From Heptranchias perlo (Eukaryota): a DNA stretch of 64,000 bases. The position numbers and the translations under genes were made by a program. Of this stretch, positions 17,340-64,000 are shown piece by piece. The notes under the pieces were generated by a model that worked only from the letters and a program-made list of their open reading frames with translations, did no database searches and was not told where the DNA came from. The first letter of the stretch is position 1, and each line of letters starts with the position of its first letter. Location of the stretch: assembly GCF_035084215.1 (NCBI RefSeq), contig NC_090340.1, positions 15,314,001 through 15,378,000 of the forward strand. Reading direction: 5' to 3'.

Positions 17340-17394
17340 ATGTCGACGAGTATGATGTTTCTGTGCTTGACGCTCCAGGGGATTTTTTACACAG
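17340..17394 (+). CDS. IgSF receptor copy 1, exon 1 (signal peptide MSTSMMFLCLTLQGIFYT)
   Basis: ATG at 17340, 55 nt, phase-1 donor ACAG|GTACCT; same length and donor as the copy 3 leader. Confidence 0.85.
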
Positions 17395-17563
17395 GTACCT
17401 CTTTATTCACAAGAACAGCTAATTTAATTACTAAACTGATTCCGAAGTAGTTTCCACATGAATGAAATGAACGTAATTCCTCTATCTAGATTCAATTTTC
17501 TCTTTTCCATCTCCATGTTGTATCTAATACAATTAACCCGGACTTGACTATATTTTCTGACAG

Positions 17564-17884
17564 CTGCGGACCACACTTCGTTCAGAGTGACTCAAGCGCC
17601 CGAACAGGCGACTGTATCCAGAGGGGGAAACATCACCTTCCACTGCATATTCCCCATCTCTCAAACCCATTCCTGGGCAAGAGTATATTGGTGGAAACAG
17701 GGTGAGAATAAATACCTGCACAGAAGCGCCGATAAGAGAAAACGATTTGGTCTGGAAGGTAAAGGGAGCGGTTTCTTTCAGTTGCTGAGCGCGACTTTCC
17801 AAGACTCTGGAGTCTATCACTGCGCAGTGATCCGAGAGGGAACAGTTGGAGGAAATGGAACCGGATCATATCTCATTGTGCATG
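17564..17884 (+). CDS. IgSF receptor copy 1, exon 2 (VJ-type V domain)
   Basis: Acceptor TTTTCTGACAG, donor G|GTAAGT, 321 nt phase 1/1; ITFHC, VYWWKQ, DSGVYHC, J-like GNGTGSYLIV. Confidence 0.93.
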
Positions 17885-18937
17885 GTAAGTGTGAAACACC
17901 GGAGAGCGGGACTGTTGTAAACATATCAAACATAACAAAAGGGAATGTTTTGTGATTGTTTTGTTGTACAGTTTTTGACAGTATAAACATTTCTGTGAAC
18001 ACATTTCGCGAGAAAGTTAAGTTGCATTTTCGTGTTCTCGATATAGAGCTTTCAATTAGAGAGTATAATATAACGCTCCACACCCAGGGTACTGCAAAAT
18101 GTATCAATATTAAGCAATTGGACTGTAACTCCAAATAAATTTATACACCAGATGCCTGATAGCGGAAGTTCGGATAAATTCCAAGCTGAGTGAAAATTGT
18201 TTATATTAATGCGCTTCCCCCACCATATACACGGCTCTTCGCCCATTTGGATGCTCTGTCTGCGCCGATGGCAGTCTCTGAGGTTTAACATTCTTGAAAT
18301 TAATTCTCACACGATGATTGGCTCGTTAGCGTCACGGATTTGAAAGCCAGCGTGCAACTGTTGATCAACGGATTCACTCAACAAATTGGAGCTTGGAATT
18401 CACAACTTTGTCGCCTCACTAACCCCCAATAAATAAAATAATACGCAGGAACTGTGTTGCTGAAACCTCCTGAGGTTCAACCGAATATAGTTTATTTCAC
18501 CAATTGTCATGCTTCGGCTGTGAGATCTGTCCGATACCGACTAATGCCCTCCTTTTATCATCGGCAATGTGTAGATTACTCGATTACTCGTCACCCTGTA
18601 ACTGAGTAAAAAAAAACAATGGCGAGACAAGGCGCGCCAACTTTCCCCCAGGGTTTATTTGCTTAATTATTTGGACTGTGAAACGCGACATTGATTACCG
18701 ATTGTTGCGACGTGTCTGCTGCATTATCGAGTCCAAAATTCAACGTTTTGGACTCGATAGCGCGTGTAAAATTGAACAGATGTCGGTGACGATGAATGAT
18801 ATGGTTGAGGTGTGTGTAGATGATGTGCCGAAAATTAAAAGGACAGGAGGCTGTGCTGTGGAAGGTAAATAAAAATCATATTTAATTTCTGCCAGTGGTG
18901 CCCAGTAACTCGATTTTGTTCATTGTCTGTTCCGCAG

Positions 18938-19243
18938 CTGCCCCAACTGCACTGAAGATTGCCTCGAGGACAGCTAAAGGGAATTCATCTGCGCCTCTGA
19001 CTCTTGTGTGTGAAACGGCTGAGTTTTATCCGGAGAATTTCACCCTCACTTGGTATAAAAATGCGGTCGAAACTACAACAGGAATACACACCATTAAACG
19101 GCAGAACACTGAGGGGCTGTATGAAGTTTCCAGCAGTTTGGAAGAGACGCAGCCTGTCCCGAGCGGCACGAATTATACCTGTTTGGTATCTCATGTCTCC
19201 CTTGAGACTCCAGCTGTTATCACCTATACTAAATTTAACCCAG
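18938..19243 (+). CDS. IgSF receptor copy 1, exon 3 (C1-set domain)
   Basis: 306 nt phase 1/1; LVCETAEFYP, LTWYKNA, GLYEVSSSL, YTCLVSH are C1-set motifs. Confidence 0.93.
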
Positions 19244-19384
19244 GTACGAGGCCAATGGTCCAGCTACTCTTAAATTCGCAAAGAGCTATATCGTAGAATT
19301 TGTACATATTAATATGGTTCACAGAAAACTCATGGGAGATATTATCGGAACCACCCGCCATAATGTACAACATTATTCTTGCAG

Positions 19385-19503
19385 ATCCTGTCGGTATGTC
19401 CCCTTACTACTCGGGTTTTAGATATGCGCTGGGTGGTTTGGCGTTTCTAGTGCTCCTGGTCATCATCGGGACGCATTGCCAATTGCAGGTAAAAAAAAGG
19501 TAA
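19385..19503 (+). CDS. IgSF receptor copy 1, exon 4 (stalk, TM with Arg, short tail)
   Basis: Acceptor TTCTTGCAG; DPVGMSPYYSGFRYALGGLAFLVLLVIIGTHCQLQVKKR*; donors at 19488 and 19499, in-frame TAA 19501-19503. Confidence 0.88.
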
Positions 19504-19987
19504 GATCTACTGTAAGCGTTTGATTTTTATACAAAACTTCAGGGAGCGGTGGAGAGGGAAAGTGAGAGCCTCCGAATAACACAAAGGAGAACTCGATTAT
19601 GACTTAAACTTGAAGGCAGTGTTATCTGATTTCAGGGAACGCCGGTTGTTCCAGACAGTAATAGATTCTGCACTTTAAAACGCAGAAATCCTCAAAAATC
19701 AGATTAAAAATAGACGTGATTACCTGTGTATTTGCAACAAAAGTTTCCACTTTGCAGCGTGATAAATGAAATGTACCGTGACACACGATCACTTTCCAAA
19801 CCAGTGGGCTGTGGGTCCGCAATTCGTTTGAGCGAAGCGGTGTGAGGCTCCGGCTGGTAAATCACTGCTGATCTCTACAGGGGCTCGGATTCAAACATTG
19901 TCCGTAAGAATATCTTTGAAACCATTGATATGGAAACTCGGTAAATATTTCAATCATTCATTATGATTACATTTCATTAATTCACAG

Positions 19988-20016
19988 GTGAAAAAGATGT
20001 AACGGGATCAAAGCCG
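19988..20016 (+). pseudogene. Copy 1 former cytoplasmic mini-exon, now out of frame
   Basis: TTCACAG|GT...CCG|GTATGT; flanks align with the copy 2 exon 42206-42249; open only in phase 1 (GEKDVTGSKP), which neither exon 4 donor supplies. Confidence 0.7.
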
Positions 20017-20204
20017 GTATGTTCACTCATTCATTCCCACAAAGAGTTCAATTATGCAGAAAGATTGATATCATGGAGACATTTTATCATAATCATGTCA
20101 GAACAGTTTGCCTATTTCCTAGAAGTATTTGTTCCGCTTAATGGGTCATTCAAATCGTGTTCAGTAAAATATTTGACGCTGGCAGGGAAGGAGTTCACCC
20201 TCAA

Positions 20205-20308
20205 GGGCGAAATTGGCTTTCAGAAAAGTAAAGCCAGCGAGGTATAAAACGGGCGGTCGATTCCCTATCGCTCGTTTCCCGCTACCGCGGAAGACCAATT
20301 TCAACCCC
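20205..20308. mobile_element. Short MITE in a copy 1 intron
   Basis: TIR GGGCGAAATTGGCTTT ... AAGACCAATTTCAACCC; absent from the paralogous intron near 42370-42390. Confidence 0.6.
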
Positions 20309-20688
20309 GTCCTCGTTGCGTTGCTGCTTTAAATTGTCAAATAGCAGAAAAGAAAACTGTCTGTTTCATTGAAAATGCACCTAAGTAATAACTGTTTATA
20401 GATTCAACATTATTTTTAATTGGGGAAAAAATAAATGAATTTGTATTCTGGAACTACCGCCCATTGAAACATTTCTGTATTGTAGAATGAAGATTGTCAG
20501 CTTTAAATAGTTGTTATAGTGACCACAGTATTCACCGGTCTTAACATTTGCACTTATGTAACTGTATTAATTATGGTTTCTGTACTTCATCTCTAGCCTA
20601 AGTTGTTCTGTCTAATGGTTAGCCAGTATTCTGTAAACTGGTGAACTAGCCACATTACAAAACATATACTTGTTTCTGGCCCATGCAG

Positions 20689-21092
20689 GAGGCAAAGGCT
20701 GATATCGTTGATACGCTGCAGCAAGTTTGACCAGAACCAAAGAAACTCCAAGACGTAAGCTTGCAGAGAAAAGGACTGTGTATAATCAGTCGGGGCGGGA
20801 AGCGGATCAGACAGATACAGATCATCAGTGTAGCACCAAAATTCATGCGATAACGGAGAATATTAGGCTGGCTGACTCTGGTGGTTTATTGTATCTAAAG
20901 CTGTTCGTGTGTTATTCTGATGATTGTTTTCGGCAGCAGTCGTCAAATTGGCAAAACGACCAATTAACAAAATTTCCAAACATGGGTTTACAGACCAAAC
21001 AAGGCACCTTCGCGACTCTAGAATTGTCAGTCCAAAAAACGGGGAAATCCAAAAAAAAACAGAGAAACACGTTCCAGTATTATATCATTTAA
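20689..21092 (+). pseudogene. Copy 1 decayed cytoplasmic ITIM exons A (20689-20789) and B (20994-21092), probably now 3' UTR
   Basis: Align with copy 2 exons 42773-42874 and 46416-46588; 1-nt deletion, lost donor, motifs changed to YAAA, YNQ(S/T), TFATL. Confidence 0.78.
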
Positions 21093-33474: not shown

Positions 33475-36400
33475 CTCAATGGTGGTGGAGTCGAGCACGT
33501 GAGTGCAAAAGACAAGGCTGAAGCGTTTGAAATTATCTTCAGCCAGAAGTGCCGAGTGGACGATCCATCTCGGCCTCCTCCCGATATCCACACCATCACA
33601 GAAGCCAGTCTTCAGCCAATTTGATTCACTCCACGTGATATCAAGAAACGGCTGAGTGCACTGGATACAGCAAAGGCTATGGGACCCGACAACATCCCGG
33701 CTTTAGTGCTGAAGTCTTGTGCTCTAGAACTAGCTGCTCCACTAGCCAAGCTGTTCCAGTACAGCTACAACACTGCCATCGACCCAACAATGTGGAAAAT
33801 TGCCCAGGTATGTCCTGCCCACAAAAAGCAGGACAAATCCAATCCGGCCAATTACTGCCCCATCAGTCTATTCTCAATCATCAGCAAAGTGATGGAAGGT
33901 ATCGTCGACAGTGCTATTAAGCGGCACTTACTCACCAATGACCTGCTCACTGATGCTCAGTTTGGGTTCGGCCAGGACCACTCGGATCCCGTCCTCATTA
34001 CAGCCTTGGTCCAAACATGGACAAAAGAGCTGCATACCAGAGGTGAGGTGAGAGTGACTGCCCTTGACATCAAGGCAGTATTTGACCGAGTGTGGCACCA
34101 AGGAGCCCTTGTAAAATTGAAGTCAATGGGAATCAGGGGGAAAACTCTCCAGTGGCTGGAGTCATTCCTAGCACAAAGGAAGATGGTAGTGGTTGTTGGA
34201 GGCCAATCATCTCAGCCCCAGGACATTGCTGCAGGAGTTACTTGGGGCAGTGTCCTAGGCCCAACCATCTTCAGCTGCTTCATCAATGACCTTCCCTCCA
34301 TCATAAGGTCAGAAATAGGGATGTTCGCTGATGATTGCAGAGTGTTCACTTCCATTCACAATCCCTCAAATAATGAATCAGTCCGAGTCCACATGCATCA
34401 AGACCTGGACAACATCCAGGCTTGGGCTCATAAGCGGCAAGTAACATTCGCGCCAGACAAGTGCCAGGCAATGACCATCTCCAAAAAGAGAGTGTCTAAC
34501 CACCTCCCCTTGACATTCAACGGCATTACTATCGCCGAATCCCCCACCATCAACATCCTGGGGGTCACCATTGACCAGAAACTTAACTGGACCAGCCATA
34601 TAAATACTGTGGCTACAAAAGCAGGTCAGAGGCTGGGTATTCTGCGGCGAGTGACTCACCTCCTGACTCCCCAAAGCCTTTCCACCATCTACAAGGCCCA
34701 AGTCAGGAGTGTGCCTTGTAGATGGTGGATAGAAAGAGTATCTACAGTTATATAAAAAGAAAAAGGGTGGCTAAGGCAAACGTAGGTCCCTTAGAGGATG
34801 AGACCGGGAAATTAATGGTGGGAAACATGGAGATGGCAAAAATGCTGAACAAATATTTTGTTTCAGTCTTTACGGTAGAGGATGCGAAGAATATCCCAAC
34901 ACTGGACAAACAGGGGTCTCTAGGGGGGGAGGAGCTAAATACGATTAAAATTACTAAGGAATTGGTACTCAGTAAATTAATGGGACTCAAGGCGGATAAA
35001 TCCCCTGGACCTGATGGCTTACATCCTAGGGTCTTGAGGGAAGTGGCAGTAGGGATTGTGGATGCTTTGGTGATAATTTTCCAAAATTCTCTGGACTCGG
35101 CAAAGGTCCCGGCAGATTGGAAAACTGCTAATGTAACACCCTTATTTAAAAAGGGTAGTAGGCAGAAGGCTGGAAATTATAGACCAGTTACCCTAACATC
35201 TGTGGTGGGTAAAATTTTGAAGTCTATTATTAAGGAGACAGTAGCAGAATATTTGGATAAACATAATTTAATAGGACAAAGTCAGCATGGCTTTATGAAG
35301 GGGAAGTCATGTCTGACAAATTTGCTTGAGTTCTTTGAGGATATAACGTACAGGGTGGATAAAGGGGGACCAGTGGACGTAGTGTATTTAGACTTCCAGA
35401 AGGCATTCGACAAGGTGCCACATAAAAGATTATTGCTCAAGATAAAGAATCACTGGATTGGGGGTAATATTCTGGCATGGGTGGAGGATTGGTTATCTGA
35501 CAGGAAGCAGAGAGTTGGGATAAATGGTACATTCTCGGACTGGCAACCAGTAGCCAGTGGTGTTCCGCAGAGGTCGGTGCTGGGTCCCCAACTCTTTACA
35601 ATCTATATTAACGATTTGGAGGAGGGGACCGAGTGTAACATATCAAAGTTTGCAGATGATACAAAGATGGGAGGGAAAGTAGAGAGTGAGGAGGACATAA
35701 AAAACCTACAAGGGGATATAGACAGGCTGGGTGAGTGGGCGGAGATTTGGCAGATGCAATACAATATTGGAAAATGTGAGGTTATGCACTTTGACAGGAA
35801 AAATCGGAGAGCAAGTTATTATCTTAATGACGAGAAGCTGGAAAGTACTGCAGTACAAAGGGATCTGGGGGTCCTGGTGCAAGAAAATCAAAAGGTTAGT
35901 ATGCAGGTGCAGCAGGTGATCAAGAAGGCCAACGGAATGTTGGCTTTTATTGCTAGGGGGTTAGAATATAAAAACAGGGAGGTATTGCTGCAGTTATATC
36001 AGGTATTGGTGAGACCGCACCTGGAATACTGCATACAGTTTTGGTGTCCATACTTAAGAAAAGACATACTTGCTCTCGAGGCAGTACAAAGAAGGTTCAT
36101 TCGGTTAATCCCGGGGATGAGGGGGTGGACGTATGAGGAGAGGTTGAGTAGATTGGGACTCTACTCATTGGAGTTCAGAAGAATGAGAGGCGATCTTATT
36201 GAAACATATAAGATTGTGAAGGGGCTTGATCGGGTGGATGCAGTAAGGATGTTCCCAAGGATGGGTGAAACTAGAAGTAGGGGGCATAATCTTAGAATAA
36301 GGGGCTGCTCTTTCAAAACTGAGATGAGGAGAAACTTCTTCACTCAGAGGGTGGTGGGTCTGTGGAATTTGCTGCCCCAGGAAGCTGTGGAAGCTACATC

Positions 36401-37110
36401 ATTAAATAAATTTAAAACAGAAATCGACAGTTTCCTAGAAGTGAAGGGAATTAGGGGTTACTGGGAGCGGGCAGGAAATTGGACATGAATTTAGATTTGA
36501 GGTTAGGATCAGATCAGCCATGATCTTATTGAATGGCGGAGCAGGCTCGAGGGGCCGATTGGCCTACTCCTGCTCCTATTTCTTATGTTTTTATGTTCTT
36601 ATGTGATGGAATACTCTCCACTTGCCTGGATGACTGCAGCTCCAACAACACTCAAGAAGCTCGATACCATCCAGGACAAAGCAGCCCGCTTGATTGGCAC
36701 CCCATACACCACCCTAAACATTCACTCCCTTCACCACCGGCGCATTGTGGCTGCAGTGTGTACCATCCACAGGATGCACTGCAGCAACTCGCCAAGGCTT
36801 TTTCGACAGCACCTCCCAAACCTGCGACCTCTACCATCTAGATGGACAAGAGCAGCAGGTACATGGGAACAACACCACCTGCACGTTCCCCTCCAAGTCA
36901 CACATCATCCCGACTTGGAAATATATCACCGTTCCTTCATCGTCGCTGGGTCAAAATCCTGGAACTCCCTTCCTAACAGCACTGTGGGAGAACCTTCACC
37001 ACACGAACTGCAGCGGTTCAAGAAGGCCACCTTCTCAAGGGCAAGTAGGAATGGGCAATAAATACCGCCCTCGCCAGCGACGCCCACATCCCATGAACGA
37101 ATGAAAAAAA
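33475..37110 (+). mobile_element. Family B APE-RT LINE, 5'-truncated second copy
   Basis: ORFs 33436-33624, 33679-34755, 36585-37061 closely match 9410-11617; A-rich end at 37104-37110. Confidence 0.92.
34714..36603 (+). mobile_element. Young 5'-truncated CR1 nested in family B LINE; uninterrupted 588-codon RT reading frame (34722-36488)
   Basis: Splits host GGAGTGTG|ATGGAATAC; FADD intact; (TTCTTATG)n tail; nearly identical to the minus copy at 37-1900. Confidence 0.95.
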
Positions 37111-39410: not shown

Positions 39411-41856
39411 TTATTTGTTCACTTTTATTAGAGCAACTACCTAAGTAAACTTATTATTCTGTAATGGCATGCGCCCACGAGCACTGCACTGCCTCAGTTT
39501 TGCACCTCGCTGGTCCTCAGCCTGTACTTCAGCGTAACTCTTATGCCCATACTTCTCTGGTTTCTAGATGGTCATTAGATTTGCTATTTAACTATGAATA
39601 ATTATATAAACTAAAAGTTTATGTAAATAAGGACAGAATTTATGATTTCAACATGGAGATTGAATTAATTCTGCGTGACCTGGGTCAATTATTTCTCAAC
39701 CCTCAACCGCTCCTTCATGGAAACACAATCCTTGGTCTTGGCTCCCTGCCACGACCTGAAGTGCCGAGAATTGTTCCTGACTCCACTCTCAGCGCGTCCG
39801 GACCCAAACGATCTGGTTGCACTTCAGTCTTTCTTCATTCGTCCAGTTCATTTCCTCTGTTGCTATTTTTTGATTCTTCTACTGCGCTGGCCGAATCTGG
39901 CTGTGTTGGTGTGGGTCGTACTGTAAAGAATTCGACTCTGCAAAGTTTGAATTCTTCATTTGGGTTCGACCACAAATGAATGGACTTTAGGCGTTGGGAA
40001 CAGGCTGCAAATGCTTCGTCGTGGAATGGCCAGGGTGCAGAAGTGACCTCCCCACTTATTCCAGCAGTCTACTCACTCGGTCCATATATTTTCACGAAAA
40101 TCGTTTCAGAGAAGTTTGAAGTGTTTATATTTTATTTTGTTTTTGTTATACAAAAAGGACCCTTATTTTCATTGTCCAAAGATGGCCTCTCTGGGGGTTT
40201 TCATTCCCGGCGCTACAATCCAATCTCGAACTCACAATTCCTCTAATTCCCACCTCTTATGCGCCCCCTCCCTTTGTCCTACCATTGCTGGTCATTCTTT
40301 CGGCCGTCGAGGCCCCATCTACCACAGTTTCCTCCCTAACATCGTTTCCTTTAAGAGACTCCTTAAATCACACCTCTTTGACCAAGCTTTCGGCCGCACC
40401 AGGTAGTGTCTCCTTCTTTGGTTCGACGTCATTTTTTCCTTCCGCTCTTGCGAAGCCCCTTGAGACGTTTTCTTCTATCATAAAGGAGCTATAAAAATAC
40501 AGATTCTTGGAGGTTTCTGGTTTTGATTGGCAGCATTCGCTACTCTGCATATTGAGCAAATCCATCAGGTAAACTTAAGGGAGAGTGATTATTTGAATCA
40601 ATCAGAAAAGTATTAGGTGCTAATTTTTGGATTAATGCACTTACATACATTTTTAAAATGCAGTGTCAATGGACACGAGAAATATGAGAGCCCTTTAAGA
40701 GGCCCTTAAAATAACGGCGAAGCCTCCATTGCACTTCACGCTCGAATGAGGGGAATATTTCCCTCAGCCGTTCCCATGCTCGGGCAGTGTGTGCTGCCCG
40801 ACATCCATCTGGTCCCTCCTTTTATTCTGGGTAATGCACAGATTTTTCGTTTCTCTCTTGGGGAGACAATCAAACAGAGCCAGAGTTATTAATAAATAGG
40901 GAAAGACTGATAATGGCATCCATCTCTCAAATCCAACGTCTAATATCTCCCCAGTAACCTGATTTTCCCCATTGTCTGTTCGACAGCTGCCCCAACTCCA
41001 CTGAAGATTGTTTCCAGAACACCCGAGCCAAATCGTCTGCCTCTCTGACTCTTGTGTGTGAAACGGCTGAGATTTACCCGGAGGATTTCATCCTCACTTG
41101 GTATAAAAATGGCGTCAAAACCACAGCTGGGATAAATATTACTAAACGACAAAACACTGGGGGTCTGAATGAAGTTTCCAGTCCTTTGGAAGAGACGCAG
41201 CTTAACCGAAATGGCTCTGTTTACATCTGTTTGGTAACTCATGTCACCCTCCAGACACACACCATTGTAACCTACACTGTAAGCAATTCCAACCCAGGTA
41301 AGAGGTCAACAGGCCAAGAACTGAGGTCAGCTACTGTTAAATACTGAAAAGGTATTTCATAGAGTTTGTTCATATTGATAATCGTAAGATAATTTGAATA
41401 AAATTCCCGGGAAAGCAAACTGAAAATTCATGTTTCAATGTAATGTATTATTGACCTGAACCTGTTGTAAAACCGGAAGTAATATTATCGCTCTCCACCC
41501 AGAAACTGCCAGTGAAACCTCGACAGCTTCTCAAAATGCCATGGCGGTGTTTGAATCACCTTCTCTGGATTGTAAGTCCACGCCTCTGGATTAAAAGTTC
41601 AGTAACATAAGCACTACCCTACCGTACCCTTATATTGCTAGATATTTAACTGTGGGGGCTAAACTAGGGAACACTGGTAAAAAGTAGTAAATGATAATTT
41701 TAAGAATGATGTCAGGAATTTCTTCTTCACAAAGATCAACATGTGGAATAAACTTGCAGACTCAGCAAAGGAGGCAAAAGACCGAGAATCCTTTAACAAA
41801 TAGCTGGATTCTACATCGGGGAAACATTTTCATCAGGGTGGATGAATTAAATTCTA
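37760..41856 (+). repeat. Segmental duplication, paralogous to 55209-64000 (copy 2 versus copy 3 unit)
   Basis: Colinear similarity across a shared CR1-CR1 junction (TTCCATCCAAA.CTCTCTGAAC), unique DNA 39410-40200 / 56890-58060, an L2 tail 40200-40510 / 58060-58345, the C1 exon and intron. Confidence 0.92.
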
Positions 41857-44800
41857 CTGTTTTGCCTATGTAGTTCAATGTCGTATTGGCTTTGTCCACT
41901 GCTGCTCTGCTTGGATGGACATGTGGTTAGCGTCCAGTCTACTAAGACTCCTAAGTCTCTTTTAGTTCCATCCTTAGCTATTTCAATGCAATCCATGGAA
42001 TACATGTATAGTTTAATTTTCCTTCCCATCCGTAGTAATCTACTCTTCTCTGCATTGAATTTCATCTGCTATTGCTCTGCCCACCTATATATCTAAATTC
42101 ATGTTAAGCTTTACATTGATTCTAAAAATACTTTTGAAAGCATAAACATGGAAATTGAATAAACATTTTAATCATTGAGTGTGATCAAATATCATTAATT
42201 CCCAGGTAAACAGAATAGGGTAAGAACACCGCACCGCAATGAAGAGCTGGTAGGTTCATATCATTCATCCAGGAAGAGAGTTCGAATTTAAATAAATATT
42301 GTTATGATGGAGATATTTTATCAAAAGTAATTGTCCCTCTTTGATGAGTCATTCAAATCGTGTTTTGAAAATTAATTGGCACTTGTTGCAATGCTGGTGT
42401 AACTGGTTAAACAAAGATTTTTTAAAAATAAAATTGGTAGCTTTATTCAACATTTACCTAGGTAATAATTATTTGTAAATCCATCTAATCCTTGCTTTTG
42501 GAATCTGACATTACACGTCTAAGATTCTGAAACTACCTCTTGTTTAATCATATCTGTAACACTGTATAGTGGTGAAAATTGATAGGTTGAAATGTCAGTT
42601 ACAGTGGACACACTATTTACCGGCCTTAATATTCGCATAATTCTAAAATATATTAACTGTGGTTTTATTTGTAGTCCCGATCATTCTGTGCAATATTTCA
42701 TCAGCAGTCTGTAAACGGGCGAAGGCACTGAACTAGCCACATAACAAGACAATTTCCTTCTGGCCCGTGCAGGGAGCAGAGAGTGAGATGGCGCCTTATG
42801 CTGCATTAGATGTGAGCAAAGCCAAGAAAACCCCAGGACGTAAACTTGAAAAGGAGAGGGCAGTATACGCTCAGGTACGGCAGAGAAGCAGATAAGGGAA
42901 ACATAAATCACCACTGTGGCACTAACATTCATGGAATAGCGGAGTATTTTGGGTTATAGAAGTGGCTGATCCTTTATCTGAATACCATATTCCCGCTCTC
43001 TCCCCATACCCCTTTTGTGTCTAGAAATCTATCTGGCTCCTTCTTAAATATATTCAGTGACTTGGCCTCCATTGCCTTCTGTGGTAGAGAATTCCACAGG
43101 TTCACCAAATTCTGAGTGAAGAAATTTGTCCTTATCTCAATCCTAAATGTCCTACCGCATATCCTGAGACTGTGAGCCCTTGATCTGGACAGCCCAGCCA
43201 GGGGAAACATCCTCCCTGTATCCAGTCTTTCTAGCCCTGTCAGAATTTTATATGTTCAATGAGATACCCTCTCATTCTTCTAAAATCGAGTGAATATAGG
43301 CCGAGTCAACCCAATCTCTCCTCATATGACAGTTCTGCCATCCCAGGAATCAGTCTGGTGAACCTTCTATGGAAAGTATATCCTTTCTTAGTTAAGGAGA
43401 TGAAAACTGCATACAATACTCCAGGTGTGGTCTCACCAAGACCCTGTATAACTTCAGTAAACATCGTTGCTCCTGTACTCAAATCCTCTTGCAATGAAGG
43501 CCAACATAACAGTTGCCTTCCTAGTTACTTGCTGCACCTGCACGTTTGCTTTCAGTGACTGGTGTTCAAGGATACTCAGGAACATCAACATTTCACAATC
43601 TACCCCATTTAATAAATCGCTGCCTTTCTGTTTTACCTTCCGAAGTGGATAACTTCACATTTATCCATATTATACTGCATCTACCATGTATTTGCCCACT
43701 CACTCAACTTGCCTAAATCGCCTTGAAGCCTCTTTGCATCACCCTCACAACTCACGATCCCACCTAGTTTTATGTCATCAGCAAACTTAGAAACATTACA
43801 TTTCGTTCCCTCATCCAAATCATTGCTATATATTGTAAATAGCTGGGGCCCAAGGACCGATCCCTACCGTACCCCACTAGTCGCTTCCTGCCACCCCGAA
43901 AAAAAAACATTTATTCCTACTCTCTGTTTCCTGTCTGTTAACCAATTTTCAATCCATGCCAGTATATTACCCCCAATCCCATGTGCTTTAATTTTGCATA
44001 CTAACCTCTTATGTGGAATTTATCAAAGGCCTTCTGAAAATCCAAATAAACCACATTCACTGGTTCTCCCTTATCTATTCTACCAGTTACATCCTCAAAA
44101 AACTCCAGTAGGTTTGTCAAACACGATTTCCTTTTCATAAATCCATGTTGACTTTGTCCAATCCCGTTGATATTTTCTAAGTGTCCTGTTATCACATCCT
44201 TTATAATAGACTCGAGCATTTTCTCTACTATTGATGTTAGGCCAGCTATAGTTCCCTGTTTTCTATCTCCCTCATTTTTGAAATAATGGGGTTACATTTG
44301 CCACCCTCCAATCTGCAGGAACTGTTCCATAATCTACAGAATTTTGGAAGATGACAACCAATGCATCCATTATTTCCAAAGCTACCTCTTTTAGTATTCT
44401 GGGATGCAGATTATCAGGCCCTGGGAATTTATCGGCTTTCAGTCCCATTAATTTCTCCAACAGTATTTTTTTACTAATACTACAACCCTTTAGTTCCCCC
44501 TTCTCACTAGTCCCTTGGTTCCCTAGCATCTCTGGGAAGTTATTTGTGTCCTCTTCCGTGGAGACAGAACCAAAGTATTCGTTTAATTGCTCTGCCATTT
44601 CCTTGTTCCCCATTATAAATTCTCCCGTTTCTGACTGTAAGAGACCTACATTTGTCTTCACTAATCTTTTTCTTTTTACATACTTGTAGAAGCTTTTACA
44701 GTCCACTTTTATGTTCCTTGCAAGTTGACTCTCATACTCTATTTTCCCCCTTTTAATCAATCTCTTGGTCCTTTTTTGCTGAATTCTAAACTGCTCCCAA

Positions 44801-46588
44801 TCCTCAGCCTTGTTACTTTTTCTGGCAACTTTAAGTGACTTCTCTTTGGATCTAATACTATCCTTAATTTCTTTTGTTAGCCATGGTTGGGCCGCTTTTC
44901 CTATTGTGTTTTTGCGTCAGAAAGGAAAGTATATTTGTTGCAATTCATGCATTCGTTCCTTAAATGTTAGCCATTGCCTCCCCACCAGCATGCCTTTTAA
45001 TGAAGCTTCCCAGTCTATCATAGCCAACTCACTGCTCATACCTTCGTAGTTTCCTTTGTTTAGATTTATGACCCTAGTTTCGGATTGACCTACTTCACTT
45101 TGCATCTTAATGCCGAATTCTATCGTGTTATGTTCACTCTTCTCTAAAGGTCCCCGCACAACAAGATTATTAATTAATCCCTTCTCATTGCACAATACCC
45201 AACCTAGGATAGCCTGTTCCCTGGTTGGCTCCTCAACATACTCTGAAAAACCATCTCGCACACTCCAGGAATTCATCCTCCACATTATTATTGCTAATTT
45301 AGTTTGGCCAGTCTACATGTAGATTAAAGTCACCCATGATTACTATAGTACTCTTGTTACATGCATCTCTAATTTCCTGTTTGATGCCGTTTTCTACATT
45401 ACCACTACTGTTTGGAGGCCTATAGACAACTCCCACCGGTGTTTTCTGCCCCTTTGTGCTTCTTAACTTCACCCAGACTGATTCTACATCTTGATTTTCT
45501 GAGCCAATATCCTTTCTCACTATTGCTCTGATTTCATCCTTTACTAACGCCAGACCACCTACTTTACCTTTTTGCCTGTCCTTCCTAAATATCGAATACC
45601 CTTGGATATTCAGCTCCCAGCCTTTGTCACCCTGCAGCCATGTCTCTGTAATTGCAAATATATCGTATGGGTTTACATTTATTTGTGATGTTAATTCATC
45701 TACATTATTGTGAATGCTTCGTGCATTCAGATGCAGTGCCTTTAGATTTGTCTTTTTAACATTTTTAGACATCTTAAAAAAATTTTGTGCTATGGCCCTA
45801 TTTGTCTTAATACCATTTTTTCTTACCCGGACCCTATTTGTTAGTGCACTCTTTTGTTTGTACGCTCTGCCCTTCCTGACACAATCTGATTAACCTTACC
45901 CCAATCACTTTCCTGCACTGCTTCTTTGTCTTTTCTCTTTAGCATTCTAGATTTCTCTCCACCGGGACTCTTCCCCCCACCCCACCCCCACTTATTTAGT
46001 TTAAAGCCCTATGTACCTCACTAGTTATTCGATTTGCTTGAACTCTGGTCCCAGCATGGTTCAGGTGTAGACCGTCCCAACGGAACAGCTCTCTCTTTCC
46101 CCAGTACTGGTGCCAGTGCCCCACGAATCGAAACCCACTTCTTCCACACCAATATTTGAGCCACGCATTCATCTCTCTGATCTTAGTTACCCTATGCCAA
46201 TTTGCTCGTGGCTCAGGTAATACTCCAGAGATTAATACCTTTGCGCTTCTGCTTTTTAATTTAGTCCCGAGCTGCTCAAACTCTCAGTTGTGCTGACTTT
46301 AACCGTATTTTGTATCTAAAGCTATTTGTGAGTTATTCGGATGACTATTTTGAGCAGCATTCCACAAACTGGCAAAAAGACCAATCAACAATACTTCCAA
46401 ACATTGGCTTTTCGGGTAAAACAAGGAAGAGCCCGTGACAAACTGACGTACGCGATCTAGAATTGTCTGGCCCCGAGAAAGCGGGGAAATCTAAAAATAA
46501 CCGAAAAAGTACAGAATTAGGCGAACTACAGACGAAAAAACAAAGAGGAGTAACAGAGGTCGTTTACACAGAAGCAAGAACCAAATAG
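40987..46588 (+). pseudogene. IgSF receptor copy 2 pseudogene: frameshifted C1 (40987-41297), cytoplasmic exons 42206-42249, 42773-42874 (read-through stop 42895), 46416-46588; no leader, V or TM
   Basis: C1 is 311 nt versus 312 in copy 3 (GAG CC AAA versus GAG AGC AAA); exon A reads GAESEMAPYAALDVSKAKKTPGRKLEKERAVYAQ; exon B has a CGG acceptor and a 1-nt deletion. Confidence 0.88.
42958..46286 (-). mobile_element. CR1, near-complete disrupted ORF2, in the last intron of copy 2
   Basis: ORFs 45299-45772 (APE), 44917-45285, 44272-44760, 44001-44219, 42974-43210; flanks rejoin to match the 204-bp copy 1 intron 20790-20993. Confidence 0.92.
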
Positions 46589-57836: not shown

Positions 57837-59345
57837 ACAGGCTGCAAATATCTCGGTGTGGAATGGCCAGTTTGGAAAAGTGACCTCCCCACTTATTCCA
57901 GCGGTCCACTCACTCGGTCCATGTATTTTCATGAAAATCTTTTCAGAAAAGTTTGAAGTGTTTATATTTTATCTTCTTTTTGATTTTTATACAAAAAGGA
58001 CACTTATTCTCATTGTCCATAACTGGCCTCTCTGGGGGTTTTCATTCCCAGCGCTACAATCCCCTCTCGAACCACAATTTCTCTAATTCCCACCTCTTAT
58101 GCGCCACCTCCCTTTGTCCTACCATTGCTGGTCATTCTTTCGGCCGTCTAAGCCCCATGTTCCACTATTTCCTCCCTAAAATCGTCTCATTTAAGAGACT
58201 CCTTAAAATCCATCTCTTTTACCAAGCTTTCGGCCGAAACTGGTAGTGTCTCTTTAGTTCGACGTCCATTTTTTTCCTTCCACTTTTGCGTAGCCCCTTG
58301 GGGTGTTTTCTTCTATCATGAAGGAGCTTTAAAAATACAGATTCTTGGGGGTTTCTGATTTTGATTGGCATCATTCGCTACTCTGTATGCTTGAGCAAAT
58401 CCATCAGGTAAACTTAAGGGAGAGTGATTATTTGAATCAATCAGAAAAGTGTTAGGTAATAATTTTGGGAGTAATGCACTTACCTACATTTTTAAAATGC
58501 AGTGTCCATGGACACGAGCAATATGAGAATATTTAGGATGCCCTTCAAATAACGGTGAAGCCTCCGTTGCACTTGACGCTCGTTTGAGGACAATATTATC
58601 GTTCACTATTAATATATTTTGGTCATTGAGCTCTTGACCTGGACGCTCATTAGGCGCACGGTTCTTGTTTATCTAACTAACTTATCCGCTATCAAACCAA
58701 CTTGCGCAGTTTAATCATTGCCGCCATTATTTTGCTCCAAACATTTTTGGCAGGATGCGCTGTTAACTGGAAATTGCATTTGCAAACATGCCCTGATCTC
58801 GGCAGCTGTCTGATGGGATCATCAAATCTCTATTTCCGAACTGTTAAATAAGGTGATTATAATGTAAAAATGGACCCTCGGTCTTTCTCATAAACTATTG
58901 CCACTTTATTTAAGAACTGATTAGAAATGATCTATAAAATTTCCCAGTCTGTACATATTTGACATTTTTACAATATTGTGTGACGAGTGCAACCTAAATG
59001 AGGTGTAATTATCGCACGAGATTCACCACAAGGAGCTTGCACATTCGACATCTTAATCTGGGGCAATCCAATACGGTGCAGCAGCTGTTCGAAAATATAT
59101 TTGCTGTTGGTAAATTCTCCATTTGAAATTCGGATATTATGTTTTCCTAATCCTGCGTTAACCGTGACAAAGGTGATTGCAGTGGCTGCTTCGGAGCAAA
59201 ACGGTCAGCAAATCTCACTTTACAAACGAAACCTATTTTCTGAATCTGCAGACACAGGATGTCAAACGTCATTGCGAGGCATTTCAGCTTAAGTAAGTAA
59301 TCAGTAGTGGAAACAGTCAGTGATCAGTTTAATCTTTTGCTCGGA

Positions 59346-59400
59346 ATGTTGTGGAGTGTGATATTTCTGTTCCTGTCTCTCCGGGGAATTAGATTCACAG
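59346..59400 (+). CDS. IgSF receptor copy 3, exon 1 (signal peptide MLWSVIFLFLSLRGIRFT)
   Basis: 55 nt, donor ACAG|GTACCT, homologous to the copy 1 leader. Confidence 0.85.
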
Positions 59401-59593
59401 GTACCTGTTATTCTCTATCCCAGCTGTCTCAATAAAAACACATCTGAAGGAGTTACCACTTGAATTGAATGAGATTTATTTCGTCCATCTATATTCTTTT
59501 TCCTCTAACTTATTTCCATGTACAAATATTTTCCAAAGTGTCTGGTTCCACATAGAATATAAATAACCAAATGTTTCATATATTTTCGAACAG

Positions 59594-59902
59594 CTGCTGC
59601 ACGTATTTCACAAACACCCGAAAAGATGATTGCATTAAGGGGGACAGACATCACCTTCTACTGTATAATCCCCCTCTCTCATGAAAACTCATGGGTAGAA
59701 GTGCGTTGGTGGAAACAGGGTGAGAACGAATATCTGCAAATAGGCGACGATAACAGAAAACGATTTGGTGTCAAAAATAAAGGAGCTGGTTTCTTTGAGC
59801 TGCGGAACGTGACTTTCCAGGATTCTGGAATCTATCACTGCACAGTGACCCGTCAGGGAAGAGTTAGTGAAAATGGAACGGGCTCAAATCTAATTGTGTG
59901 CG
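59594..59902 (+). CDS. IgSF receptor copy 3, exon 2 (VJ-type V domain)
   Basis: 309 nt phase 1/1; ITFYC, VRWWKQ, DSGIYHC, ENGTGSNLIVC; donor G|GTAAGT. Confidence 0.93.
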
Positions 59903-60736
59903 GTAAGTGACTGGGATGAGCGGGAACGTCCAAATGTATCAGATGTAACAAGAGGTCATTTTGTGATTGTTTTATTGTACATTTTTTGACAGTATGAAAC
60001 ATTTATTTTAATACATTTACAGTCAAACTCAATGTTACTCCGATGTCTCTGTACACAGCTGCCAAATACGCGGCATAAAATGGCGCTTCATTTGCTGAGT
60101 TTTGTGAAATTCCATCAATATTAACCAGATTAAGTAACATGTTACTGGATTCATCTCAAAATGTCGTTTCTACATCAGACTTCTGAGGAGGGAAGGTGCG
60201 GAACAAATTCCAAATATATTGATGACTGACTGAAAATACTTTATATTATTGCGCCATTTATACGGCTCTTACCTTATTTTAGAAGCTTTGTTTGTCCCTG
60301 TCACTGTCGGAGAGGTTTAACGGTCTCTCCTGAAATTAATGCTCACAAAATGACAGGCTGGTTCGATTGGCTGATTTCAAATCAGATGTAATTAACTCAA
60401 CAAACGGCACCATGAACCAAAATATCGCCGCCTCTTTCGTCTCCAATAAATAAAATATTCCCCAGACACTGTGCGGCTGATGCTTTCTGAGATTGAATGG
60501 AATGTAATTTCCTTCAGCCATTCCCATGCTCGGGCAGTGTGAGCTCTCCGATAATCATTTGGTCCCTCCTTTTATTCTCGGAAATGTACAGATTTTTCGT
60601 TTCTCTCTTGGGGAGACAGTCAAACAGAGCCAGAGTTACTAACAAACAGGGAATGACTGAGAATGGCATTCATCTCTCATCTCTCATCTCTCAATATCTC
60701 CCAGTAACCTGATTTTCCCATTTCTCTGTTCGACAG

Positions 60737-61048
60737 TTGCCCCAACTCCACTGAAGATTGTCTCCAGGACACCCGAGAGCAAATCGTCTGCCTCTCTGAC
60801 TCTTGTGTGTGAAACGGCTGAGTTTTACCCGGAGGATTTCACCCTCACTTGGTATAAAAATGGCGTCAAAACCACAACTGGGATAAATATCACTAAACGG
60901 CAAAACGCTGGGGGTCTGTATGAAGTTTCCAGTTCTTTGGAAGAGAAGCAGCTTAAGCGGAATGGATCTGTTTACATCTGTTTGGTAACTCATGTCAGCC
61001 TACCGACACCCGCCATTGTAACCTACACTGTAAGCAATTCCAACCCAG
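60737..61048 (+). CDS. IgSF receptor copy 3, exon 3 (C1-set domain)
   Basis: 312 nt phase 1/1, open; LVCETAEFYP, WYKNG, YICLVTH; donor CAG|GTAAGA. Confidence 0.93.
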
Positions 61049-62200
61049 GTAAGAGGCCAACAGGCCAAGAACTGAGGTCAGCTACTGTTAAATACTGAAA
61101 AGGTATTTCATAGAGTTTGTTCATATTGATAATCGTAAGACAATTTGAATAAAATTCCCGGGAAAGGAAACAGAAAATTCCTGTTTCAATATAATATATT
61201 ATTGACCTGAACCTGTTGTAAAACCGGAAGTAATATTATCGCTCTCCACCCAGAAACTGCAAGTTAAACCTCGACTGCTTCCAAATTGTTAAAAAAAATG
61301 AGCAGGGATTTTATCTTTTCTATCCAATTATTTTATGTCTCTTGCTTATTACTAAACATTCTAATTTGTCCTCTTGTTAAAGTGTTTTTATTCTATCGCA
61401 TTATATTCTTTCCTTACATGAGCTGCAGGACCAGGAGCTGCAGTTCGGTGTCTGCCATCGAGCCTCTTCTGGTGCGGCTCCTGATTCCGAGCGCTGTTGG
61501 GCGATTCATTGTGAATGGGTCAGAAATCGACCTTGTGGATAGGCCGTAATCTGACCCCTCCAGGATACAGAAGTTTGGAGCGGGATCCCATTTCATACCT
61601 TTCATTCAGGCCCTGCCCCAGATCTGTCTGTACTACAACCGGGTGCAAAGCATCGTTTTATTAACAACCATTTTTCTGTAATTAACAAATAATCGTGTGC
61701 TGGTTTCCTTTCCTATTCAGTGACAGTCTTATTTCGGTAAATACGCTGCAGATAATTGAATTGACGTTTAAACCAATTGATACAATCAGCCTTTTTTCTC
61801 AAACAATGGCGAGTCACATGTCGCTGACTGGCCCTGATTTCATCAAACAAGCGCTTAAGAGCAGAAGAAAAGTCAATTCGAAGAGCAAGCCATTCGGTCC
61901 ATCGAAACTTATTCTTCTAGAATTCCAACTTTCCCAAACCAATCTTCAGAACACCCTAAACTGGTTCCCTCCGTCGCAGATTATTCCGGTCATGTGTCAC
62001 CCTTTTTGACAAGAAGCTCCTTTTGATATCAGTTCTAAAAAGATAAATTAAGATTATTTTCAAATTCCGACGTACTCGTGCTATAATGCGGAGTTACTGT
62101 AAATATGAACAGTAGTTCAACCAACCAAAGTTATCCCGACGTCTCCATTTAGGTAACGTCCGCCACAAATTAGAACTCTATGTTGCTTTTCATCTTGCAG

Positions 62201-62311
62201 ATCGTGACGGTAAATATCGTTACCTTTGGGGTGTTGGATGTGCGGTGGGTGAATTGGCGTTTCTCGTGCTCATAATCATCATTGGGACAAGATGCAATTT
62301 GACGAATAAAC
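62201..62311 (+). CDS. IgSF receptor copy 3, exon 4 (stalk, TM with Glu); gene continues beyond the window
   Basis: Acceptor CATCTTGCAG, donor C|GTAAGT, 111 nt phase 1/1; DRDGKYRYLWGVGCAVGELAFLVLIIIIGTRCNLTNK; aligns without gaps to the copy 1 TM. Confidence 0.88.
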
Positions 62312-62764
62312 GTAAGTGTTACCTTAATCGTCTTATTTTCAGAAAAATATTCAGAGGGATAGTTAGAGCGTCATGGGCGGCACAGCAGGAGAATAGTGCG
62401 ATTGTTATTTAAAGGTGAAGGTGATATTATCTGATGCCAAAGGAATAGAGACCACCGCTTGCTGCAAATGGCACCGAATTCAGCATCGTACAATGCAAGA
62501 ATCCTCACAGAATCATATTATAAAGAATCTGATTATCTGGATTTTAATAAGGGAAATTTCCACTTTGTGGCAGATAAGTGAAATCTGATCGATTGTTTGA
62601 TCAATTTGCGGGTCCCTGACTATTTTGGGTAAAGTGGTGTCAGTGTCCAGTCGGTGTCGATGTGCACGACTGCTGATGGCTTCAGGGACTCGGATTTACA
62701 ATACAATCCGGAAAATGTGATATCACTAAATAACTGCGACGAGGAAGACCATTCGGTCCATCCG

Positions 62765-63992
62765 AATTCATCCGCCCAGATGAAAATGTTCCCCCAATGT
62801 AGAATCCAGCTGTTTGTTAAAGGATCCTCGGACATTTGCCTCCTTTGCCGTATCTGGAAGTTTATTCCACATGTTGATCGTTGAGAAGGAGAAATTCCTG
62901 ACATCATTCTTAAAATTATCATTTACTACTTTTTACCAGTGTCCCCTAGTACAGCCCCTACAGTTAAATATTTAGCACTATAAGGGTACAGTAGTGTAGT
63001 GCTTATGGTACTGAACTTTTAATCCTGAGGCCTGGATTTATAATCCAGAGAAGGTGATTGAAACAGCGCCATGGCATTTCCAGAACTTGAAACCAGTTTT
63101 AAAATTTGGAAATAAAAAGCTGGTTTCAGTGAAAAAGCAAGTGACCGTGAAGCTGCCGGATTGTCATAAAAAGCCAAGTAATTCGTTAATGTCCTTTGGG
63201 GACGGAAACCTGCCGTCCTTACTCGGTCTGGCCTATATGAGACTCCAGTCCCACACCAATGTGGTTAACTCTTAACTGTTCTCTGAAGTGGTCTAGTAAG
63301 CTAATCAGTTGTCTCTAACTCAAGACAACTAAAGATGGAGAATAAATGCTGCCCTTGTTGACCACACCACATCCTGAGAATGAATAAAGCAAAAATGTGG
63401 GTTAACTTTATGCGCTTAACATTCTTATATATTTCCATAAGATCACTGCTCAGACGCCGCCTTTCCAGGCTAAAAGATCAAGTTTATTCAGGGTTTCTTC
63501 ATAACTCAGTTCCTTGACACTGGGAAACCAGCCTGGTGGCTCTTCTCTGCACTGGCGCTAGCGCTAACGCTTGTTCATCAGTGACCAAAACTGGTCGCAG
63601 TATTCAATGGTCCATGTGACCAGAGCACTGATGCCAGCTATTTATTTCCAAATTTTAAATACTGGTTTCAAGATCTCAAAATGCCATGGCGGTGTTTGAA
63701 TCACATTCCCTGGATTATAAATCCAGGCCTCTGGATTAAAAGTTCAGTAACATAAGCACTACACTACCGTACCCTTATAGTGCTAGATATTTAACTGTGG
63801 GGACTGAACTTGGGGACACTGGTAAAAAGTAGTAAATGATAATTTTAAGAATGATGTCAGGGATTTCTTCTTCACAACGATCAACATGTGGAATAAACTT
63901 CCAGTTACAGCAAAGGAGACAAATGTCCTAGTAACCTTTAACAAACAGCTGGATTCTACTTCGGGGAACATTTTCATCTGGGCGGATGAATT
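62765..63992. repeat. Imperfect inverted duplication, arms about 359 bp (62765-63123 / 63634-63992), 510-bp spacer
   Basis: Arms are reverse complements across a CR1-remnant/SINE-head junction; ORFs 62620-62922(-), 41691-41873(+) and 63783-63977(-) reflect it. Confidence 0.88.
62985..63395 (+). mobile_element. tRNA-headed SINE sharing both 5' and 3' ends with family B LINE
   Basis: 62985-63312 aligns with 7878-8178; 63320-63395 aligns with 11540-11617. Confidence 0.8.
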
Positions 63993-64000
63993 AAATTCTA

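What the first reader, a model, noticed from the sequence alone, without database searches (positions are those of the whole stretch)
42206..46588. Pseudogene preserves an ancestral SIRPalpha-like multi-tyrosine tail with an ITIM split by an intron
Seen: repairing the CGG acceptor and one deleted base gives ...EMAPYAALDVSKAKKTPGRKLEKERAVYAQ|VKQGRARDKLTYAxLELSGPEKAGKSKNNRKSTELGELQTKKQRGVTEVVYTEARTK*. That is four tyrosine motifs plus a probable lost one (STELGEL), with an alternating YAxL / YAxV pattern like SIRPalpha (ITYADL, TEYASI, LTYADL, SEYASV). The YAQV valine comes from GTA both in the donor site and at the next exon start, so spliced and read-through forms (AVYAQVRQRSR*, 42895) both keep the motif. 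Inference: built-in switch between a two-motif and a four/five-motif tail; the 3.3-kb intronic CR1 may have favoured the short form before exon B decayed.
Basis: partly seen in the sequence, partly recalled or inferred. Interest (0 to 1): 0.7.

Follow-up and report, generated by a model that had tools for sequence, protein, structure and literature searches.

The report
Dead copy of shark inhibitory receptor
This is the broken tail of a dead copy in a large shark-type family of antibody-like surface receptors that likely act as immune brakes; the intron inside its tyrosine motif is real and spliced out in relatives, and a built-in short/long tail switch remains possible but unshown.

Summary
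The sequence details check out, and intact paralogs confirm the reconstructed tail, including the lost tyrosine (TEYAEL). The copy is dead: leader, V and transmembrane exons are deleted and C1 is frameshifted, so it makes no receptor with either tail. It belongs to a V-C1-TM receptor family with about 109 C1 matches on contig C18, with inhibitory-type and short Arg-TM members. The A-B intron is about 206 nt in 14 of 14 other copies; probable-RNA contigs of a related species splice it in five junction forms. The donor valine proves nothing, since any phase-0 GT reads Val. The exon-start valine is particular to this clade: 7 of 10 family junctions give Thr. Exons A and B are duplicated two-tyrosine cassettes, with the donor on the motif's +3 codon. 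A retention switch in intact genes stays open: the intron is unusually conserved and one relative has a database-modelled short isoform. SIRP-like in logic, not shown to be a SIRP. This scan found the family (17 notes) and the motif-cutting donor (1 note) before, on other DNA.

The parts
40757..40759 (+). Deletion junction 1: about 1.9 kb holding the leader and V exons is missing relative to gene 3 (58597-60507)
   Evidence: self-blastn, junction sequences, no leader or V hit between 22 and 59 kb
40987..41297 (+). C1-set exon of the pseudogene, 311 nt instead of 312, frameshift at codon 13
41529..41538 (+). Deletion junction 2: about 2.4 kb holding the transmembrane exon is missing relative to gene 3 (61288-63674)
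42206..42249 (+). Small 44-nt juxtamembrane exon, AG/GT intact
   Evidence: S-to-A join seen in a contig of run X2
42773..42874 (+). Exon A, phase 0-0 cassette with two tyrosines 23 residues apart (APYAAL, AVYAQ)
42875..42895 (+). Donor GTACGG and read-through to the TAA stop at 42893-42895
42955..46287 (-). CR1-type LINE of about 3.3 kb inserted about 80 nt into the A-B intron; ends approximate by a few bases
46413..46415 (+). Dead acceptor CGG (CAG in L021, L022, L023)
46416..46588 (+). Exon B, terminal cassette: LTYA motif at 46449, one-base deletion near 46455, lost tyrosine at 46517-46519, VVYTEA, TAG stop
17340..21092 (+). Gene 1: paralog with open leader-V-C1-TM and a broken tail (frame errors in TM and A exons, A donor lost)
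59346..64000 (+). Gene 3: close intact paralog (leader 59346, V 59594-59902, C1 60737-61048, TM 62201-62311; tail exons lie beyond the window in L021). Glu in the TM; fifth tyrosine replaced by Asp

Best explanation
The stretch is the tail end of a dead duplicate (leader, V and transmembrane exons deleted, C1 frameshifted, last acceptor lost, LINE inserted) of a seven-exon V-C1-TM receptor whose intact paralogs likely splice exon A to exon B as the normal product and are predicted to inhibit immune cells by recruiting SHP-type phosphatases to paired phosphotyrosines. The tail is built from duplicated ~100-nt phase-0 cassettes, each with two tyrosines 23 residues apart. In internal cassettes the donor CAG|GTA lies on the +3 codon of the second motif, so splicing cuts that motif and the next exon supplies the +3 residue. 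That residue is usually Thr, and Ile or Val only in clades of this sub-cluster. Shown: lesions, intact paralogs, cassette homology, splice joins in a related species. Inferred: origin of the donor from a motif codon, phosphorylation, SHP binding, pairing with the Arg-TM members.
For: Lesions. Four of 15 modelled 10-kb loci give open seven-exon products (L021, L022, L025, L026; L025 needs a GC donor after V). Intron 197-208 nt in 14 of 14 other copies modelled. Run X1: exact 206-nt GT..AG skip at depth 9.7, plus joins with AAC (50.5) and ATTATGTAC (8.3); loose ends in X1/X3 show two more spliced forms. Cassette homology: 0.54 identity in register over 78 nt against 0.27 for shifted or permuted controls, 0 of 300 permutations reaching it; database proteins with repeated cassettes (P0041 four, P0125 exon A twice). 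All 10 internal cassettes end CAG|GTA, and all 10 terminal cassettes with CAG continue with a Leu codon (related copies, not independent). Arg-TM short-tail members in the same genome: L037, L054, L056, L058, L059.
Against: The runs are only guessed to be RNA, are contigs, and come from two other organisms; X1 and X3 are one sample. One X2 contig joins S to A and continues 133 nt into the A-B intron (depth 3.5), and no spliced A-B join was seen in X2. The A-B intron is more conserved than other non-coding parts, which plain splicing does not explain. Homology between intron start and terminal-exon continuation is inconclusive (14 of 300 permutations, below the best shifted control). Only one of five tyrosines in L022 is a strict ITIM.
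Confidence: 0.8

Rival explanations
1. Regulated retention of the last intron in intact genes gives a second, short tail. In most paralogs read-through would complete TVYAQV or IVYAQV and stop within about 5-25 residues, giving one ITIM-plus-ITSM pair, while splicing breaks that motif and adds a new pair.
For: Intron interior 144-148 of 178 identical between L021/L022 and L025/L026, against 52-73% for seven other non-coding segments. It is still alignable with paralogs of the distant cluster (z 3.6-7.2 in 10 of 10 pairs), whereas the equally short leader-V intron is not (z 0.6 and 1.1). It is the last intron, so a retained form would escape nonsense-mediated decay (established knowledge). Horn shark RefSeq models a long and a short tail for one gene (XP_067906080.1 and XP_067906081.1). 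One retained contig in X2.
Against: In X2 a second contig shows 9-nt and 1-nt deletions at the start of exon B, so that gene may simply have lost the exon. The only listed intron-holding contig in X1 also holds S-A intron sequence (unspliced RNA or DNA). The horn shark short form has His at the second tyrosine and its RNA support was not seen. No codon-phase bias (21/57, 20/58, 27/58), no stable fold (z +2.2), no Rfam match. The intron after V is also partly conserved (z 3.5-3.7), and gene conversion could give the same signal.
Confidence: 0.2
2. One reading: the CR1 insertion favoured the short tail in this copy while it was still a working receptor, and exon B decayed afterwards.
For: The LINE is old (22 of 567 private differences, 3.9%) and so came early on this branch (74 of 1663, 4.4%). 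Exon A is open with both tyrosines, while exon B has several lesions. Exon B loss recurs in the family (L029-L031, P0125, run X2).
Against: The same copy lacks leader, V and TM exons and has a C1 frameshift. Exon A has 4 replacement and 0 silent private changes, with no sign of constraint, though intact paralogs show 3 and 1, so the test has no power. Lesion order cannot be read from one copy.
Confidence: 0.1
3. There is no intron: A and B are one long terminal exon that the LINE interrupted.
For: Gene 1 has a 126-codon open frame across the region.
Against: No other paralog has a frame open across it (0 of 19 loci); GT/AG are conserved; exact GT..AG skip in X1.
Confidence: 0.02

Closest known systems
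SIRP family (SIRP-alpha, SIRP-beta, SIRP-gamma)
   Same: V-set plus C1-set ectodomain; the C1 has the FYP and xVxH motifs and 13 residues between Cys and Trp described in PMC2785349 (passages read); clustered genes with inhibitory-type and short charged-TM members (PMC3716694, passages); LTYAxL and TEYA motifs resemble LTYADL and TEYASI (PMC5413580, one passage; SEYASV seen only as a search count).
   Different: One C1 domain, not two; five tyrosines in duplicated exon cassettes; Arg in the TM of the short members (Lys in SIRP-beta, recalled); no SIRP V domain among 26 and 60 listed structure hits; SEP and PI31 family genes, SIRP neighbours in mammals from memory, lie on C22/C3 and not on C18; ligand unknown.
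RefSeq-modelled cartilaginous-fish V-C1 cluster proteins (e.g. Heterodontus francisci XP_067906080.1, XP_067905823.1; Mustelus asterias XP_078067246.1)
   Same: Same architecture, 40-77% V identity, same tail cassettes and junctions.
   Different: Automatic names only (SHPS-1-like, SIRP-beta-like, Ig light chain-like, NCR3LG1-like, tapasin-like); cassette number varies from one to four.
PD-1 ITIM-ITSM tandem motif
   Same: Two tyrosines about 25 residues apart that work as one SHP-2 docking unit (PMC12151841, passages); each cassette here has 23-residue spacing.
   Different: PD-1 has a single V domain and one pair; no ancestry is implied.
CEACAM paired receptors
   Same: Precedent for YxxL motifs split by phase-0 introns (PMC5112662, legend of additional file 1 in the main text; the file itself not read); long and short tail isoforms of CEACAM1 (recalled).
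   Different: Different Ig domain types; there the split concerns ITAM-type motifs.
UrIg and UrIg2 (non-rearranging shark VJ-C1 genes)
   Same: Unsplit VJ exon followed by C1; UrIg2 is the second-best structure-database hit of the C1 exon.
   Different: UrIg2 has nine C1 domains (PMC12227049, passages); the word ITIM does not occur in that paper; here a cluster of about a hundred single-C1 genes.

Membership tests
SIRP | N-terminal V-set domain | tested here: met
   Pfam V-set over cut-off in genes 1 and 3; deleted in the pseudogene itself
SIRP | True C1-set domain (FYP, xVxH, 13 residues Cys to Trp) | tested here: met
   criteria from PMC2785349
SIRP | V-C1-C1 three-domain ectodomain | tested here: not met
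   one C1 exon between V and TM in the modelled loci that have all three
SIRP | ITIM/ITSM tail in the inhibitory member | tested here: met
   strict ITIM LTYATL and near-ITSM TEYAEL in L021/L022; VHYAAL also strict in L025/L026
SIRP | Paired cluster with activating-type members | tested here: met
   Arg-TM short-tail genes L037, L054, L056, L058, L059; adaptor binding untested
SIRP | Orthology by V-domain similarity or phylogeny | tested here: inconclusive
   no SIRP V among listed hits; C1 hits SIRP-alpha no better than IgH, CD276 or UrIg2; no tree was built
SIRP | Conserved synteny with mammalian SIRP neighbours | tested here: inconclusive
   SEP family on C22 and C3, PI31 family on C22, none on C18; opioid precursor search found nothing; neighbour list recalled
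SIRP | Binds CD47 | not testable with these tools
   CD47 profile found no match, and no control rang
Chondrichthyan V-C1 paired receptor cluster (RefSeq-modelled) | Seven-exon leader-V-C1-TM-S-A-B layout with two-tyrosine cassettes | tested here: met
   the pseudogene keeps C1, S, A and B at 91-94% identity to L022
Strict ITIM at the split motif | (S/I/V/L)xYxx(I/V/L) or TxYxx(V/I) | tested here: not met
   AVYAQV has Ala at -2; definitions from PMC12151841

The most novel reading that the evidence does not exclude
Across this shark receptor family a conserved ~200-nt last intron acts as a signalling switch: keeping it completes an ITSM from the donor's own GTA codon and ends the protein as a PD-1-like ITIM-ITSM receptor, while splicing destroys that ITSM and appends another cassette. 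The pseudogene's clade would have regained the valine in the spliced form, and new cassettes would arise by duplicating the terminal exon, whose motif codons double as a splice donor.
Probability: 0.2. Interest if true: 0.6.

Novelty: new member of a known kind. Interest (0 to 1): 0.3.

Why it matters
The pseudogene matters little by itself. The family is a large non-rearranging VJ-C1 paired-receptor system of cartilaginous fish that I did not find described in nine library searches, though databases model it and three papers likely to bear on it could not be read. Its tails show a simple way to grow and shrink inhibitory signalling: tandem phase-0 cassettes with the donor inside the motif. 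If retention is regulated, one small intron would switch motif class, which is directly testable by RT-PCR.

Tried and rejected
Single long terminal exon: rejected. Hidden coding frame, RNA structure or known RNA family in the intron: none. Extension of cassette homology beyond the donor: inconclusive (8 of 91 local alignments with z above 3). Expression of the pseudogene or of any gene of this species: no RNA holder listed; the four runs laid are other organisms, so this is no evidence either way. Exon B as protein query: no hit among 16 candidates. Profile search of 1.84 billion representatives: the best 150 were mostly long multi-Ig proteins without names and were not used. Opioid precursor and CD47 profile searches found nothing and are uninformative. 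Replacement/silent test on exon A has no power. L036-L040 were fetched but not modelled exon by exon; automatic boundaries for L024 and L028 (V) and L029-L031 (exon B acceptor) were off and were read from the alignment instead. Three papers were not held (Ohta 2019 J Immunol by DOI and PMC id; two Immunogenetics papers by recalled DOI) and may describe this family. No supplements were read. No structure prediction, complex prediction or tree was run.

Full report
Observation. Exon A (42773-42874) ends in AVYAQ before a CAG|GTACGG donor, and read-through stops at 42893-42895. Exon B (46416-46588) starts with GTA behind CGG. The three closest paralogs have CAG there, YATL where this copy lacks one base, and (two of three in frame) TEYAEL where it has TELGEL. 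The intron is 3541 nt here and 197-208 nt in 14 of 14 other copies modelled. The extra 3.3 kb is a minus-strand LINE with endonuclease, RT and esterase remnants (3 of 6 fragments matched) and many 90-92% identical copies (40 scored of 4087 candidates).

Against gene 3 of the same window it lacks about 1.9 kb with the leader and V exons and about 2.4 kb with the transmembrane exon, and its C1 exon has a frameshift at codon 13. It cannot make a membrane receptor with either tail. Private differences are 74 of 1663 sites (4.4%) for the copy and 22 of 567 (3.9%) for the LINE, so the insertion is about as old as the branch. The order of insertion, deletions and exon B decay cannot be read. Exon A has 4 replacement and 0 silent private changes, but intact paralogs show 3 and 1, so this says nothing about selection.

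Family. A C1 query gave 135 matches among 150 scored candidates, 109 of them on C18, almost all in two clusters (matches are not gene counts). Of 15 ten-kb loci modelled, four give open leader-V-C1-TM-S-A-B products (L021, which is gene 3, L022, L025, L026). L022 has five tail tyrosines. Named relatives come from sharks and rays under automatic labels. Short-tailed members with Arg in the TM exist in this genome (L037, L054, L056, L058, L059), so the family looks like paired receptors. That framing came partly from earlier scan notes and was then checked here.

Splicing. No run of this species was listed. Contigs of two other organisms, guessed to be RNA, were laid on L022. Organism A (X1 and X3, one sample) shows an exact 206-nt GT..AG skip and four further spliced forms from other clades. 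Its one listed intron-holding contig also holds S-A intron sequence. Organism B (X2) has one contig that joins S to A and runs into the A-B intron (depth 3.5), and another with 9-nt and 1-nt deletions at the start of exon B; no spliced join was seen there.

The valine argument. A phase-0 donor begins GT, and GTN is always Val, so read-through must give Val. The spliced +3 residue varies. Among 34 cassettes found in 30 loci, the 10 internal ones all end CAG|GTA and are followed after splicing by Thr (7), Ile (1) or Val (2); L025/L026 give Asn, and L029-L031 are frameshifted at the exon B start. Database proteins add Tyr and Ala. For most of the family, splicing breaks the motif and read-through would complete TVYAQV. 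This clade is the exception, and its Ala at -2 makes the motif neither a strict ITIM nor an ITSM (definitions in PMC12151841, passages). An earlier scan note reached the same reading on other DNA.

Mechanism of the tail. Exons A and B are homologous cassettes: 0.54 identity in register against 0.27 in controls, with local alignments that put the donor GTA on the Val codon of a terminal TEYAEV. L057 has three cassettes, P0041 four, P0125 a doubled exon A with a cut exon B, and P0020 one ending AVYAEV. I infer that terminal-exon duplication makes new cassettes and that the Gln-Val codon pair serves as donor. Homology beyond the donor was tested and is inconclusive. The 23-residue spacing fits tandem-SH2 docking as described for PD-1; binding is inferred, not shown.

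What keeps the switch alive. The intron interior is 81-83% identical between two clades, against 52-73% for seven other non-coding segments and 53-70% for four-fold sites of C1 and exon B; V four-fold sites reach 77-83%. It stays alignable with the distant cluster in 10 of 10 pairs, unlike the equally short leader-V intron. It is the last intron, so a retained form would not trigger nonsense-mediated decay (established knowledge). Horn shark has database-modelled long and short tails for one gene. No coding, structural or Rfam signal explains the conservation, and gene conversion is an alternative. I put a regulated switch at about 0.2.

Comparison with known systems. It likely works like SIRP-alpha or PD-1, but membership of the SIRP family is not shown: one C1 instead of two (PMC2785349, passages), no SIRP V domain among the listed hits, and recalled SIRP neighbour families on other contigs. 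Tyrosine motifs split by phase-0 introns have precedent in CEACAMs (PMC5112662, passage). UrIg2 differs in domain number (PMC12227049, passages); PMC10751288 (passages) does not mention SIRP. PMC3716694 (passages) gave the paired-receptor definition and PMC5413580 (one passage) three of the four SIRP-alpha motifs. Nine searches found no paper on this family; three likely relevant papers were not held and no supplements were read.

Verdict. A correctly reconstructed pseudogene tail of an under-described but database-modelled receptor family that this scan has met repeatedly. The specific switch argument fails as stated; a family-level version remains testable. Interest 0.3.

Noticed in passing
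L010 (C15), L011 and L017 (C1), about 1100-1900: Three dispersed copies of exon A, intron and exon B without V or C1 hits in the 8-15 kb of upstream flank checked; all have lost the A donor, and the two C1 copies follow a 34-bp minisatellite. Origin unexplained.
   Followed up: partly
L029, L030, L031 (L013-L015), exon B start: A clade with a frameshift right after the exon B acceptor and decayed LTYA motif; a spliced contig end in organism A fits the same one-base loss, so a fixed two-tyrosine tail may be shared between species.
   Followed up: partly
window 62201-62311 and L021:7221-7394: Gene 3 has Glu in its transmembrane segment and Asp in place of the fifth tyrosine.
   Followed up: no
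window 17340-21092; L032-L035: A clade with open V-C1-TM but broken tail exons and lost A donor; may encode tail-less receptors or be decaying.
   Followed up: partly
L037 (C18:14828000-14837999): Arg-TM short-tail gene whose V and C1 exons are about 90% identical in DNA to those of window gene 1; V four-fold sites are more alike between clades than C1 sites, a hint of gene conversion.
   Followed up: partly
P0121 and P0006 (horn shark): The A exon appears two codons longer (AQIG before the junction), so the +3 residue is exon-encoded; the short isoform continues with Ala-Ser, which would fit read-through of a GC donor (DNA not seen).
   Followed up: no
C18 14.59-14.79 Mb vs 14.98-15.13 Mb: Near-identical locus pairs (L006/L007, L015/L016, L002/L004) point to recent segmental duplication or duplicated haplotype assembly.
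   Followed up: no
window 37-1899 vs 34728-36597; 62765-63131 vs 63626-63992: A 95%-identical inverted pair of young LINE fragments, and an inverted repeat element near the window end.
   Followed up: no
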